64,000 nucleotides of DNA from Escherichia coli (GTDB taxonomy: Bacteria > Pseudomonadota > Gammaproteobacteria > Enterobacterales > Enterobacteriaceae). This document shows, piece by piece, positions 31,501 to 35,614 of the stretch. The stretch lies in NCBI RefSeq assembly GCF_003334255.1, contig NZ_QOWU01000025.1, one strand, 5' to 3'. Made by a program: the position numbers. The first letter of the stretch is position 1, and each line of letters starts with the position of its first letter.

Positions 31501-34500
31501 ATATTTAATACGTTTTAATTGTTCTCCAGCTCCCATAATGACAAAGGCGTTGCCTTCTTGATATATACATTCAGACATCATTTTTTGTAAAGTTTCAAGA
31601 GCACCGCGATACGTCTCTGATGCAGCTTCCTTACAAATTAATTTTAAAATACTATGAGCTAGTAGCTCCATGTGTTTAGAAGATTTATTTTCATTATAAC
31701 TTCCACTACCCAAAACTGCGCCAGCGTTAAATCCGTTGCTTTTACTAACTAACATTGTCTATTCCTCAATTAATGTCTACATGGCTATTTTTAATGTTAT
31801 TACTGTTTGTCACTATAAAAAAACGCTCATTTGAGACAATTACTGACATTAACTGCTTCACTTGCTACGCATGGAACTTTTAATTAAATTAGCACAGGAA
31901 TGTTAAATTTAATAAACAAAAGGTTATTTCGCTGTATGATAAAAAAAACCGTTATAATTTATTAGTGAAAATCGTTTTTCAAGTGTTAGAAATTTATATC
32001 TCAATAGCGTTGGTTAATGAGCATAGCCACGCTCCTGTAACGCTCACAAAACTCATCTGCCTGCGGCGGGTGTTCTGGTCAGTAGTAGATGTTTAAGGCG
32101 TGGCAGAGACATTTCATCCTTACTCTACGGCATTGTTCTACATACATTGGTTGTGGTACTCACTTATCATCAGTGAGCGAACAGAGAATAGTTCAGTGAT
32201 TTGAGTAATTAACCTGATTAAATGAAGGGGTATAATAAATGATAATACTCTGGCTTTATCGTTAATTACTTAATTCCACATGTAAGCAATTTGCCCGCTT
32301 GGCATAGCAGGCATTTTTTCCAGGTACTTTTGAATGAGTACTGATGGATAAATACATTGCAGTGGCGTGCCACGTACCAAAACACCAGCCCTCATTCGAA
32401 ACCACCCACCGCACTTCTTCCTTGAAATGGCGTTAGTCATGAAATATAGACCGCCATCGAGTACCCCTTGTACCCTTAACTCTTCCTGATACGTAAATAA
32501 TGATTTGGTGGCCCTTGCTGGACTTGAACCAGCGACCAAGCGATTATGAGTCGCCTGCTCTAACCACTGAGCTAAAGGGCCTTGAGTGTGCAATAACAAT
32601 ACTTATAAACCACGCAATAAACATGATGATCATATGATGTAAATAACAGATTTTTATGCGTTCCCATTCACCTTGGGTCGTGATTACACGCGACATAAAA
32701 CCCGACACCGCCTCCATTCGCAAAGTCGATACTCGCAGTCAACAAGCAAATGTTAATAATTAGCACTATCTATAGTTATCATCGATTCAATGATACTTTG
32801 TAATGATTTTGTATCTAATAATATAACTTTATTACATTAGCTGAAGAGTTTTCGCATCATTATGATATCTGTTACTTTTCACTCCATAAAAATAAACTTC
32901 GTATAGCAATATATTCTTTCATAGATCTTATTCTGCTAATCATTAGTTTCGTATGAGCGATTTTTGACAGTTGCCTCTCCAGACCACATCGATAATTAAT
33001 AAAACAGATTTAAGCATTATCCTTTTCCATATAAATATTGGATAAAAGTAGGACATCTGTTTGCAATTACTTTCACAACAATTAAACATTTTTATGTTTC
33101 CGTATACATCATATTACTCTACCATTAGAGGAACTTTATTATGTTTTCTATAAAACCAGGACCCAGAAATTTACCTATCGACAACCCCACATTGTTATCA
33201 TGGAACATTACTGACGGGGATCTAAATTCCAAATTAAATACATTAGAATATCTAAACTGTATAACAAATATTATTAATTCTTGTGGAGTTTACCCTCAAG
33301 GATTAAAAGACAGAGAAATTATATCAACTTTTCACGCAGAAAAAGTTATTAATGATCTGTTAAAAAACGATTATAAAATTTCCCTTTCTCCAGATACAAC
33401 TTACCGAGAGTTGAATAAAGCAGCACAGCGTAGCATTACAGCGCCAGACAGGATAGGAGAAGAAAAAACATAGGTTTATCAACGAGATACAATGATTGAA
33501 AGAGGTGATAACAGCGGTGTTTATCAGTATGGTCGTGCTGAACATTTCACCCACATTATATCTGACAAACCTTCCCCAAAAGATAAATATGTTGCATATG
33601 CTATTAACATTCCTGACTATGAGCTGGCAGCCGATGTATATAATATTAACGTGACGTCACCTTCCGGACAGCAAGAAACATTTAAAATATTAATCAATCT
33701 AGAACATCTACGGCAAACACTTGAGCGTAAATCTCTTACTGCTGTTCAGAAATCACAATGTGAAATCATCACCCCCAAAAAACCTGGCGAAGCGATTCTT
33801 CATGCTTTTAATGCCACCTACCAGCAGATCAGAGAAAATATGTCTGAATTTGCACGTTGCCATTATGGGTATATACAAATCCCTCCAGTGACAACTTTCC
33901 GCGCCGACGGACCAGAAACTCCCGAAGAAGAAAAGGGTTACTGGTTTCATGCTTATCAACCCGAAGATCTTTGTACCATCCATAATCCAATGGGAGATTT
34001 GCAGGATTTTATTGCATTGGTTAAAGATGCTAAAAAATTTGGTATCGATATCATTCCTGATTATACCTTTAACTTTATGGGAATTGGGGGTAGTGGTAAA
34101 AATGACCTGGATTATCCCTCTGCTGATATACGAGCGAAGATCAGTAAAGATATAGAAGGTGGTATCCCTGGCTATTAGCAAGGTCAGGTTTTGATTCCAT
34201 TCATTAAAGATCCAGTAACAAAAGAACGTAAACAAATCCATCCAGAAGATATACATCTCACTGCAAAAGACTTCGAAGCAAGTAAAGATAACATCTCTAA
34301 GGATGAATGGGAAAACCTCCATGCATTAAAAGAAAAGCGTTTAAATGGAATGCCTAAAACAACACCCAAAAGTGACCAGGTTATTATGTTGCAAAATCAA
34401 TACGTTCGTGAAATGCGAAAATATGGCGTACGAGGTTTACGTTATGATGCGGCAAAACACTCAAAACATGAACAAATAGAAAGATCAATAACCCCACCGC

Positions 34501-35614
34501 TTAAAAATTATAATGAGCGGTTACACAATACTAACTTATTTAACCAAAAATATCATAAAAAAGCCGTTATGAATTACATGGAATATCTGGTAACTTGTCA
34601 GTTGGATGAACAACAAATGTCATCACTGCTTTATGAAAGAGATGATTTAAGCGCCATTGATTTTTCATTGCTCATGAAAACGATAAAAGCCTTTTCATTT
34701 GGTGGAGATCTTCAAACCCTTGCATCAAAACCGGGTTCCACAATCTCAAGTATCCCATCAGAAAGACGGATATTGATTAACATTAACCACGATTTTCCTA
34801 ACAATGGTAATCTTTTCAATGACTTTCTATTTAACCATCAACAAGATGAACAATTAGCAATGGCATATATAGCCGCTCTGCCGTTCAGCAGGCCTTTAGT
34901 TTACTGGGATGGCCAAGTATTAAAATCAACGACTGAAATTAAAAATTATGATGGGTCCACGCGTGTCGGCGGTGAGGCGTAGCTTAATAAAGGTTGCTCT
35001 ACCTATCAGCAGCTCTACAATGAATTCCACGCATTATATATAGATAAAGCAGGAATATGGAGCGCATTTGAGGGTGTATCTGCAACTAAAAACGTTCTGG
35101 CCTTTAGTCGTGGGGATTCTGTGAACATTAATCACTCTCCTCATGATGGACTAGTTATAATAAATAAAGGAAACGAAGAAGTTGAAGGTACCTGGCCTAA
35201 CAAATTGCAACCTGGAATATACAAAAACATGGGGAGTAATAGCGTTAACATTATTATTAATAATACCCGAAAAATTATCCCCCCTGGTAAAGTATTTACG
35301 CTTAGAGGCGGAACTCTAAATATCAATATTCCTGGGCGTAGCGCTCTTCTTTTAGGGAAAACAGGAGAACCGCCGAACTATCTCTATTTATAATTTAATG
35401 TTATATCTGCCCCGATAAAACGGGGCAGATAATATGTTTAGTTTACTAACGGTCATTTTGCAGTGAAGCCATTTACTGTTTTTTATCGACCAGATAATCT
35501 GTTCTCTAATGTTAACTCCCCCTAACCTGTTGCTTTAGTTATTCATTTCCTGTCTCACTTTGCCTTAATACCCTACGTTAAATGTTACTAATTTGTTGCT
35601 TTTGATCACAATAA

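What the first reader, a model, noticed from the sequence alone, without database searches (positions are those of the whole stretch)
33141..35396. 752-codon amylase-like frame interrupted only by three in-frame TAG codons
Four consecutive track ORFs share one frame and are separated solely by amber codons at 33471, 34176 and 34980. There are no frameshifts and no TAA or TGA stops, despite roughly 35 percent GC where random stops are frequent. The encoded protein carries a GH13 region II-like motif (GLRYDAAKH) and a possible region I. Either this is a very recent nonsense-only inactivation, or expression depends on amber suppression or readthrough, or the gene came from a donor with a different amber context.
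Basis: seen in the sequence. Interest (0 to 1): 0.6.

Follow-up and report, generated by a model that had tools for sequence, protein, structure and literature searches.

The report
Known E. coli ygaQ amber pseudogene
This is the already-annotated ygaQ pseudogene of Escherichia coli, a dead amylase-like gene in which three tryptophan codons mutated to TAG stops; other strains still carry it intact or have broken it in other ways, so it is ordinary gene decay, not special decoding.

Summary
Window 33141-35393 (+) is one 750-codon frame ending in TAA, broken only by TAG at 33471, 34176 and 34980.

It is the E. coli ygaQ pseudogene (old fragment names ygaQ-ygaR-yqaC-yqaD). It lies between tRNA ileY and glaH/csiD, and RefSeq annotates it 'internal stop'. 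K-12 MG1655 has the same three ambers.

Each amber is TGG (Trp) changed to TAG by a G>A transition. Intact 750-aa alleles exist in other E. coli, and the syntenic E. albertii orthologue keeps Trp at all three sites.

Among 5426 complete genomes the ambers are roughly nested: W614am in 2403, W346am in 1082, W111am in 991. Other lineages broke the gene differently: a CAG>TAG at a Dcm site in O157:H7, 1-bp indels, an ochre codon, IS insertions, a 5' deletion, or complete loss.

Changes found only in broken alleles are enriched for non-synonymous ones (p=3e-4), which indicates relaxed selection.

No suppressor tRNA or recoding signal is present. The all-amber pattern is nominally unlikely (p about 0.02; 0.001 for three TGG>TAG), but it was selected post hoc and fits the G:C>A:T bias.

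The intact protein is a divergent GH13 fold with its catalytic residues retained. Verdict: already known, low interest.

The parts
33141..35393 (+). ygaQ pseudogene: a reconstructed 750-codon frame plus the TAA stop. It encodes a divergent GH13 (alpha-amylase family) protein with a 215-aa N-terminal extension of unknown function.
   Evidence: Translation. The K-12 MG1655 RefSeq feature is 'alpha amylase C-terminal domain-containing protein, pseudo, internal stop'. Intact 750-aa alleles such as WP_001521106.1 exist. Pfam PF00128 and PF02806 match weakly, and Foldseek top hits are all alpha-amylases.
33128..33132 (+). Shine-Dalgarno-like GAGGA, 8 nt upstream of the ATG at 33141.
   Evidence: Read directly from the sequence. 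Its function is inferred.
33141..33473 (+). Fragment 1, the 110-aa 'YgaQ' ORF of the W3110 annotation. This is the fragment cloned in the ASKA library and studied as a mitomycin C resistance factor and nuclease.
   Evidence: ORF list; PMC4725251.
33471..33473 (+). Amber 1: codon 111, TGG (Trp) > TAG, a G>A change at 33472.
   Evidence: An exact-seed 55-mer count finds it in 991 of 5426 genomes. It also occurs on alleles that lack the other two ambers (L011, L020).
34176..34178 (+). Amber 2: codon 346, TGG (Trp) > TAG, a G>A change at 34177.
   Evidence: Found in 1082 genomes.
34434..34460 (+). GH13 conserved region II, GLRYDAAKH (codons 432-440), with the putative nucleophile D436 at 34446-34448.
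   Evidence: Aligned to GLRWDAAKH of R. bromii Amy16. R434, D436, K439 and H440 are invariant in alignments A1 and A2.
34581..34583 (+). E481, the putative general acid/base of GH13 region III.
   Evidence: Invariant column in A1 and A2. The catalytic role is inferred from the GH13 family pattern.
34788..34793 (+). H550-D551 of GH13 region IV (NHD).
   Evidence: Invariant columns in A1 and A2.
34980..34982 (+). Amber 3: codon 614, TGG (Trp) > TAG, a G>A change at 34981. It is the most widespread of the three. It removes the C-terminal beta domain (Pfam Alpha-amylase_C, residues 649-738).
   Evidence: TAG is found in 2403 genomes and TGG in 1655. W614 is invariant in all 8 family members aligned. 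The 3' haplotype carrying it differs by only 0-2 nt among carriers.
35404..35431 (+). Terminator-like hairpin after the TAA stop (11-bp stem, weak T tail).
   Evidence: Consensus scan. This is only a pattern match.
32506..32581 (-). tRNA ileY (CAT anticodon, annotated tRNA-Ile in RefSeq). It is the island's tRNA landmark and is not a suppressor.
   Evidence: ARAGORN, Rfam, RefSeq annotation.
30382..31755 (-). Neighbouring pseudogene ypjC/ypjCB (DUF5507). It has one internal amber at 31273-31275, which is CAG in strain 158274-3 and CAA in the intact O157:H7 allele.
   Evidence: The amber is found in 1435 genomes.

Best explanation
This is the ygaQ pseudogene of Escherichia coli, the triple-amber allele also carried by K-12 and its relatives. 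The ancestral gene encoded a 750-aa divergent GH13 (alpha-amylase family) protein. It sits in a low-GC islet between tRNA ileY and glaH(csiD)-lhgO-gabDTP.

Three Trp codons (111, 346, 614) were each converted to TAG by a single G>A transition. W614am is the most widespread and probably the first hit. W346am and W111am were added later, by mutation and/or intragenic recombination between already-dead alleles.

Translation should stop at codon 111, so at most a 110-aa N-terminal fragment is made. No full-length enzyme is expected in a non-suppressor strain.

Shown here: the ancestral codons, the existence of intact alleles, the partly nested distribution, independent lesions in other lineages, and relaxed constraint. 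Inferred: the order of events and the absence of any product.
For: The window's frame has TAG at codons 111, 346 and 614 and no other lesion. The locus is 99.8% identical to K-12 MG1655, where RefSeq marks it pseudo with 'internal stop' and the flanks are ileY and glaH-lhgO-gabD. The old four-ORF naming ygaQ; ygaR; yqaC; yqaD is listed in PMC10652928 and discussed in PMC4725251.

All three TAGs are TGG in intact alleles and in the syntenic E. albertii orthologue. W614 is invariant across the whole small family.

The allele series runs as follows:
- Intact: ET625, JSWP021, 1504D004 and four others.
- W614am only: NCTC9066, NADC1036, 789.
- W614am plus a 1-bp insertion: H3, PM22, 158274-3.
- W614am plus a 1144-bp 5' loss next to IS3: E2865.
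- W346am plus W614am: AHM9C61I.
- All three: K-12, N61 and the window.

Genome counts are 2403, 1082 and 991 of 5426.

Independent inactivations elsewhere include Q413am in 304 mostly O157:H7 genomes, E107 ochre plus a 1-bp deletion (504239), a 1-bp deletion (2013C-3492), and IS3, ISSen4 and IS1 insertions. There is no match at all in 1317 genomes.

Derived changes restricted to broken alleles are 37 non-synonymous + 5 stop versus 24 synonymous. Those also present in intact alleles are 22 versus 47 (Fisher p=2.8e-4). Intact alleles compared with each other show about 3-4 synonymous changes per non-synonymous one, so the intact gene is under purifying selection.

No suppressor tRNA is in the window.
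Against: The type of lesion is nominally improbable under independent neutral hits. Using the gene's own polarised substitution spectrum, P(3 of 3 nonsense = TAG) = 0.023 and P(all three TGG>TAG) = 0.0013. Adding the neighbouring ypjC amber gives P(4 of 4 TAG) = 0.006.

W111am also occurs on alleles that lack the other two ambers. The simple one-lineage sequential story is therefore incomplete; recombination or recurrent mutation is needed.

A published study reports a phenotype and nuclease activity for the over-expressed 110-aa fragment (PMC4725251). The locus may therefore not be entirely inert.

No expression data were examined here.
Confidence: 0.93

Rival explanations
1. The gene is still expressed as a full-length protein through amber suppression or programmed readthrough at the three TAGs.
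For: Only amber codons interrupt the frame, with no frameshifts. The catalytic-residue codons D436, E481 and H550-D551 are still intact in the window allele. From general knowledge, many K-12 laboratory derivatives carry supE44 (glnV44), which would insert Gln at TAG.
Against: The TAGs are not conserved: intact alleles and E. albertii have TGG. Changes private to broken alleles show relaxed constraint. Sister alleles carrying W614am went on to acquire a frameshift, a 5' deletion and IS insertions. There is no suppressor tRNA in the window. By inference, three successive readthrough events at natural UAG leakiness would yield a negligible amount of product, and Gln at the family-invariant W614 would probably be damaging.
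Confidence: 0.02
2. The gene was acquired from a donor in which TAG is a sense codon or is efficiently suppressed, so the ambers are inherited rather than mutational.
For: The islet has low GC (0.35-0.39 against about 0.50 in the flanks) and lies next to a tRNA gene, which is typical of horizontally acquired DNA. ygaQ is treated as an H-NS-silenced horizontally acquired gene in PMC7229825.
Against: Each TAG is TGG in other E. coli alleles that are 96-99% identical. Alleles with 0, 1, 2 and 3 ambers all exist within the species. The E. albertii orthologue sits in the same smpB...csiD-lhgO-gabD context and has Trp at all three sites.
Confidence: 0.005
3. The amber-only, Trp-only pattern is not chance. 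Either an ancestor of the K-12-like lineages carried an amber suppressor, so amber alleles were tolerated and drifted while other nonsense types were purged. Or tight nulls (TAG rather than the leaky TGA) were positively selected because the product was harmful.
For: P(3/3 TAG)=0.023, P(3x TGG>TAG)=0.0013 and P(4/4 TAG including ypjC)=0.006 under the empirical spectrum. Five of the six distinct nonsense lesions seen in the sampled ygaQ and ypjC alleles are amber. The gene has been knocked out many times independently, which is compatible with selection for loss.
Against: The pattern was picked out post hoc because it looked odd. All four ambers are G>A on the window + strand, and G>A is the commonest polarised change in this gene (35 of 135). 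Under a G>A-dominated spectrum only Trp codons can become stops, and half of those become TAG, giving p about 0.125. The O157 amber is at a CCAGG Dcm site, a classical 5-methylcytosine deamination hotspot for CAG>TAG (established knowledge, Coulondre et al. 1978), so it has its own mechanistic explanation. Non-amber lesions are also common: an ochre codon, three different 1-bp indels, IS elements and deletions. The number of nonsense hits is not excessive: about 3 among about 15 derived changes on the window lineage, where about 0.7 is expected.
Confidence: 0.04
4. The W111 amber created a stand-alone 110-aa protein (YgaQ) with its own function in DNA repair. Part of the locus would then be a truncated but functional gene rather than a pure pseudogene.
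For: PMC4725251 reports that the IPTG-induced ASKA clone of the 110-aa ORF confers mitomycin C resistance on ruvAB-deleted cells, and that the purified protein cuts 5' flap ssDNA. Both effects are lost in a multi-site mutant. The ORF keeps its ATG and a GAGGA Shine-Dalgarno-like sequence.
Against: That evidence comes from over-expression. In the same paper, deleting chromosomal ygaQ had no effect in RuvABC+ cells. Residues 1-110 match no known domain and are poorly modelled. The segment is part of an N-terminal extension of a GH13 protein. The locus is reported as H-NS-silenced. The 5' segment keeps accumulating non-synonymous changes and stops, for example G108R in K-12, G108E in the window, and E107 ochre in 504239.
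Confidence: 0.08

Closest known systems
E. coli K-12 ygaQ pseudogene (formerly ORFs ygaQ, ygaR, yqaC, yqaD; the locus between ileY and csiD/glaH)
   Same: Same locus, same flanks and the same three amber codons. The window is 99.8% identical to MG1655, differing at 4 nt. RefSeq already flags it pseudo with 'internal stop'.
   Different: The window is not K-12 itself. It has private changes at gene positions 323 and 1406, and it lacks K-12's changes at positions 322 and 585. Here ssrA is followed directly by ypjA, without the CP4-57 prophage body.
GH13 alpha-amylases of the Bacillus subtilis AmyE type (PDB 1BAG, 1UA7, 3DC0) and R. bromii Amy16 (9QF9)
   Same: These are the best sequence and fold matches. 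Region II (GxRxDxxKH), the region III Glu and the region IV HD are conserved. A C-terminal all-beta domain is present.
   Different: Identity over the fold alignment is only about 16-18%. There is an extra 215-aa N-terminal region with no known family and large insertions in the barrel (the model is poorly confident at 311-411 and 440-505). Region I has N-F instead of N-H. No signal peptide is obvious from reading the sequence. Activity has never been tested.
Dcm (CCWGG) 5-methylcytosine deamination hotspots that give amber mutations, as in lacI (Coulondre et al. 1978; cited from memory)
   Same: The independent O157:H7 knockout is CAG>TAG inside GACCAGGTT, i.e. CCAGG>CTAGG, exactly this mechanism.
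   Different: The three ambers of the window allele are TGG>TAG in the contexts ATGGG, TTGGC and GTGGC. None of these is a CCWGG site, so Dcm does not explain them.

Membership tests
Pseudogene (unitary, mutationally inactivated) | The reading frame is disrupted relative to intact orthologues or alleles. | tested here: met
   Three TGG>TAG changes relative to intact 750-aa alleles and to E. albertii.
Pseudogene (unitary, mutationally inactivated) | Purifying selection is relaxed after disruption. | tested here: met
   42 non-synonymous/stop versus 24 synonymous changes private to broken alleles, against 22 versus 47 for changes shared with intact alleles (Fisher p=2.8e-4). The sample is small (21 alleles) and the alleles are mosaic.
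Pseudogene (unitary, mutationally inactivated) | Further independent disabling lesions occur in related lineages (ongoing decay). | tested here: met
   1-bp insertion at 1640; 1-bp deletions at 581 and 1193; E107 ochre; Q413 amber; a 1144-bp 5' loss beside IS3; IS3, ISSen4 and IS1 insertions; absence from 1317 genomes.
Pseudogene (unitary, mutationally inactivated) | No full-length product is made. | not testable with these tools
   Requires proteomics, western blotting or ribosome profiling.
Programmed stop-codon readthrough / recoding | The in-frame stop is conserved among orthologues. | tested here: not met
   The same positions are TGG in intact E. coli alleles and in E. albertii.
Programmed stop-codon readthrough / recoding | A dedicated suppressor tRNA or recoding element is nearby. 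| tested here: not met
   Only ileY and tmRNA are found in the window, and Rfam gives nothing else in 24-36 kb. The rest of the genome was not available.
Glycoside hydrolase family 13 (alpha-amylase family) | A (beta/alpha)8 catalytic domain recognisable by sequence profile. | tested here: inconclusive
   Pfam PF00128 gives i-Evalue 7.6e-4 and score 19.3 over residues 264-475, a weak match. NCBIfam amylase models score far below their cut-offs. PDB phmmer hits to GH13 amylases reach E 1.7e-7 to 5e-6.
Glycoside hydrolase family 13 (alpha-amylase family) | GH13 fold, including the C-terminal beta-sandwich domain. | tested here: met
   The AF2 model has low confidence (pLDDT 57, pTM 0.61), yet all 50 listed Foldseek PDB hits are alpha-amylase-family (GH13) enzymes. 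The best is 3DC0 with E 8e-16 and TM 0.65 normalised to the target. Pfam Alpha-amylase_C matches with E 2.7e-5.
Glycoside hydrolase family 13 (alpha-amylase family) | The catalytic Asp (region II), Glu (region III) and Asp (region IV) are present. | tested here: met
   D436, E481 and D551, plus R434, K439, H440 and H550, are invariant in alignments with remote GH13 proteins and with the family's own members. The region I His is replaced by Phe (N311-F312).
Glycoside hydrolase family 13 (alpha-amylase family) | Glycosidase or transglycosidase activity on alpha-glucans. | not testable with these tools
   The papers found for 'ygaQ' reported no enzymology of the intact protein.

The most novel reading that the evidence does not exclude
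The run of amber-only nonsense lesions covers three TGG>TAG in ygaQ plus one CAG>TAG in the adjacent ypjC. All four are G>A on the same DNA strand. On the novel reading this is not a coincidence of mutation bias. It would be the footprint of an ancestral natural amber-suppressor background, or of selection for non-leaky nulls of a harmful product, in the lineage leading to K-12-like E. coli. A second, independent speculation is that the intact YgaQ family is a GH13-fold secreted virulence-type protein. It has Ser/Thr/Asn/Pro-rich N-termini, no signal peptide is obvious, and one distant homologue sits beside InvH, LRR and invasin-like genes. Its repeated loss would then track loss of the secretion system.
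Probability: 0.04. Interest if true: 0.5.

Novelty: already known. Interest (0 to 1): 0.12.

Why it matters
For genome biology it matters little. ygaQ is a catalogued K-12 pseudogene and behaves as one.

There are three modest points of value.

(1) It is a clean textbook series of stepwise pseudogenisation within one species. Intact, one-, two- and three-amber alleles, indel, IS and deletion alleles all coexist, and intragenic recombination shuffles dead segments between them.

(2) It cautions about the published 'YgaQ nuclease'. That protein is the first 110 residues of a truncated GH13-family protein, produced by a Trp>amber mutation. The reported difference between W3110 and MG1655 is one of annotation, not sequence.

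(3) The intact 750-aa protein is an uncharacterised, almost Escherichia-restricted GH13 relative under purifying selection in the strains that keep it. That protein could be worth an enzymology experiment.

Tried and rejected
- Dcm/5-methylcytosine hotspot as the cause of the three window ambers: rejected. None of the three lies in a CCWGG site, although the O157 amber does.
- A local suppressor tRNA or RNA element: none found.
- Simple sequential accumulation in one clonal lineage: only partly tenable. W111am also occurs without the other two ambers, on two different 5' haplotypes, and alleles are visibly mosaic.
- An excess in the number of nonsense hits: not significant. About 3 are seen among about 15 derived changes on the window lineage, where about 0.7 is expected, or 2 seen against 0.6 expected once the first hit is conditioned on (my Poisson estimate).
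- A scan of the whole window for other same-frame ORF pairs split by one stop. It found the four ambers of ygaQ and ypjC plus 19 TAA or TGA junctions, which I took to be ordinary boundaries between adjacent genes without checking them. The 64-kb window cannot test a genome-wide amber bias.
- NCBIfam on the N-terminal 215 aa: no family.
- Structure prediction gave only a low-confidence model (pLDDT 57). The N-terminal domain could not be interpreted, and the fold search was used only to confirm the GH13 core.
- A literature search on natural amber suppressors failed for lack of a free slot.
When it ran it added only a handful of full-length relatives at 33-39% identity.
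Full report
OBSERVATION

Translating window 33141-35396 (+) gives one frame with stops only at codons 111, 346 and 614 (all TAG) and at codon 751 (TAA, 35391-35393). GC is about 37%. At this base composition about 50 stops would be expected in 750 random codons, so this is the remnant of a real gene, not chance.

WHAT IT IS

The segment matches 4109 of 5426 complete E. coli genomes and is 99.8% identical to K-12 MG1655. In MG1655 RefSeq annotates the same 2253 bases as a pseudogene ('alpha amylase C-terminal domain-containing protein; internal stop'). 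It lies between tRNA-Ile (ileY) and glaH(csiD)-lhgO-gabD. The window has the same neighbours: tmRNA 24367-24729, ypjA, the ypjC pseudogene, ileY 32506-32581 (-), then the gene, then glaH, lhgO and gabDTP.

This is the ygaQ locus. The four fragments were originally named ygaQ, ygaR, yqaC and yqaD (gene list in PMC10652928). [quoted passage not shown] W3110 carries the same amber at codon 111 (hit H43), so that difference is one of annotation only. K-12 MG1655 has exactly the same three ambers.

ORIGIN OF THE AMBERS

I fetched 20 further alleles and aligned them. Seven are intact 750-codon genes: ET625/WP_001521106.1, WCHEC000837, ECA64, KK19-02, AF206, JSWP021 and 1504D004.

At all three positions the intact alleles have TGG, so each amber is Trp>amber by a G>A transition. 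The E. albertii orthologue (60% identity) sits in the same smpB...csiD-lhgO-gabD context and has Trp at all three sites. W614 is invariant in every family member I could align. The ambers therefore arose inside E. coli. A donor with a different genetic code is excluded.

DISTRIBUTION

I used 55-mers centred on the variant base. Every 28-nt megablast seed from such a query must contain that base, so only genomes with the same variant are hit. The counts are:
- W614am in 2403 genomes, against TGG in 1655.
- W346am in 1082 genomes.
- W111am in 991 genomes.

The sampled alleles form a series:
- W614am only: NCTC9066, NADC1036, 789.
- W346am plus W614am: AHM9C61I.
- All three: K-12, N61 and the window.

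The 3' segment carrying W614am differs by only 0-2 nt among carriers but by 8-30 nt from TGG alleles. This points to a single origin.

The series is not perfectly nested. W111am also occurs without the other two ambers in strains 504239 and 2013C-3492, on different 5' haplotypes. The alleles are visibly mosaic. Intragenic recombination (or recurrence at this site) has therefore shuffled dead segments.

ORDINARY DECAY

Other lineages broke the gene in other ways:
- CAG>TAG at codon 413 in 304 genomes, mostly O157:H7. The change lies inside GACCAGGTT, a CCAGG Dcm site. From established knowledge this is the classical 5-methylcytosine deamination route to amber codons.
- A 1-bp insertion at position 1640 (H3, PM22, 158274-3).
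- 1-bp deletions at 581 and 1193, and E107 ochre.
- Loss of the first 1144 bp next to an IS3. About 740 records cover less than 80% of the gene.
- IS3, ISSen4 and IS1 insertions.
- No match at all in 1317 genomes.

Derived changes found only in broken alleles are 37 non-synonymous + 5 stop versus 24 synonymous. Changes also present in intact alleles are 22 versus 47 (Fisher p=2.8e-4). Intact alleles compared with each other show 66-67 synonymous against 16-23 non-synonymous codon differences. So the intact gene is under purifying selection where it is kept, and constraint is relaxed where it is broken.

IS 'AMBER ONLY' MEANINGFUL?

The closest intact allele has 9 TGG, 11 CAG, 22 CAA and 4 CGA codons. 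About 4.3-4.9% of random substitutions would be nonsense, and only 24-29% of those would be TAG. Using the gene's own polarised spectrum (G>A 35, C>T 26, T>C 23, A>G 11, 40 transversions):
- P(3/3 TAG) = 0.023.
- P(three TGG>TAG) = 0.0013.

The neighbouring pseudogene ypjC (30382-31755, minus strand) has a single internal stop that is also amber. It is CAG in strain 158274-3 and CAA in the intact O157 allele, and it is found in 1435 genomes. Including it gives P(4/4 TAG) = 0.006.

All four ambers are G>A on the window's + strand. G>A is the commonest polarised change in this gene. Under a G>A-dominated process only Trp codons can become stops, and half of those become TAG (p about 0.125).

The pattern was also selected post hoc, and non-amber lesions abound in sister alleles. 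I therefore read it as mutation bias plus chance, and keep a small probability (about 4%) for a real amber-specific cause.

THE PROTEIN

- Pfam gives weak Alpha-amylase (E 7.6e-4) and Alpha-amylase_C (E 2.7e-5) matches.
- PDB sequence hits are GH13 amylases, with region II aligned GLRYDAAKH/GLRWDAAKH.
- Alignments with remote GH13 proteins and with family members keep R434, D436, K439, H440, E481, H550 and D551 invariant. Region I has N-F instead of N-H.
- A shallow-alignment AF2 model is poor (pLDDT 57, pTM 0.61). Even so, all 50 listed Foldseek PDB hits are alpha-amylase-family (GH13) enzymes (best E 8e-16).
- The first 215 residues match nothing.
- The family is tiny: E. coli, E. albertii, and a few metagenomic proteins at 33-39% identity.

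So 'amylase-like' is right at the fold and active-site level. Activity is untested.

LITERATURE CONTEXT

PMC7229825 uses an intragenic ygaQ promoter as an example from H-NS-silenced, horizontally acquired genes. PMC4725251 reports mitomycin C resistance and flap-nuclease activity for the over-expressed 110-aa fragment. That fragment is simply the part of the protein upstream of the W111 amber.

VERDICT

This is a known pseudogene undergoing ordinary, well-sampled decay. Its first interpretation (nonsense inactivation) is right apart from 'very recent'. The suppression and donor-code alternatives are not supported.

Noticed in passing
window 30382-31755 (-), stop at 31273-31275: The adjacent pseudogene ypjC/ypjCB (DUF5507) is split by a single internal stop that is also amber. 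The codon is CAG in strain 158274-3 and CAA in the intact O157:H7 allele. Like the three ygaQ ambers it is a G>A change on the window + strand. It is present in 1435 of 5426 genomes.
   Followed up: partly
L003 (O157:H7 Rafaela_II) gene codon 413; locus coordinates about 4237-4239: O157:H7 inactivated ygaQ independently by CAG>TAG inside a CCAGG Dcm methylation site (CCAGG>CTAGG). This allele is in 304 genomes. It is a natural example of the 5-methylcytosine amber hotspot.
   Followed up: yes
L022 (human gut metagenome contig) 4916-7390 and neighbours: The most distant full-length homologue found by the first search (P0008, 34% identity) lies beside genes with InvH, LRR_4 (weak), FidL-like (weak), Trans_reg_C, EAL and intimin/invasin-type Pfam hits. 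N-termini of family members are Ser/Thr/Asn/Pro-rich, and no signal peptide is obvious. This hints, without proof, at a secreted virulence-associated role for the intact protein.
   Followed up: partly
window 33462-33463 and 34546: The window allele has private changes relative to every sampled allele: GGA>GAA at codon 108 and CCA>CAA at gene position 1406. K-12 instead has GGA>AGA in the same codon 108. None of the 991 W111am genomes matches the window's 55-mer around amber 1 exactly (best 98.2%). The source strain is therefore a K-12 relative, not K-12.
   Followed up: partly
window 24367-29599: tmRNA (ssrA, 24367-24729) is followed almost directly by a 1569-codon ORF on the minus strand (24890-29599). 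Strain N61's annotation places ypjA at the corresponding position. The K-12 gene list in PMC10652928 puts a long run of genes (intA...ypjF) before ypjA, and from memory these lie between ssrA and ypjA in K-12 as prophage CP4-57. This strain therefore appears to lack the CP4-57 prophage body.
   Followed up: no
window 33141-33473: The published 'YgaQ nuclease' (PMC4725251) is the 110-residue N-terminal stub left by the W111 amber. [quoted passage not shown]
   Followed up: yes
window 34167-34188: A terminator-like hairpin (CCTGGCTATTAGCAAGGTCAGG followed by TTTTGATT) spans amber 2. It is probably a chance consensus match: 4 such sites were found in the region against 2.1 expected.
   Followed up: no
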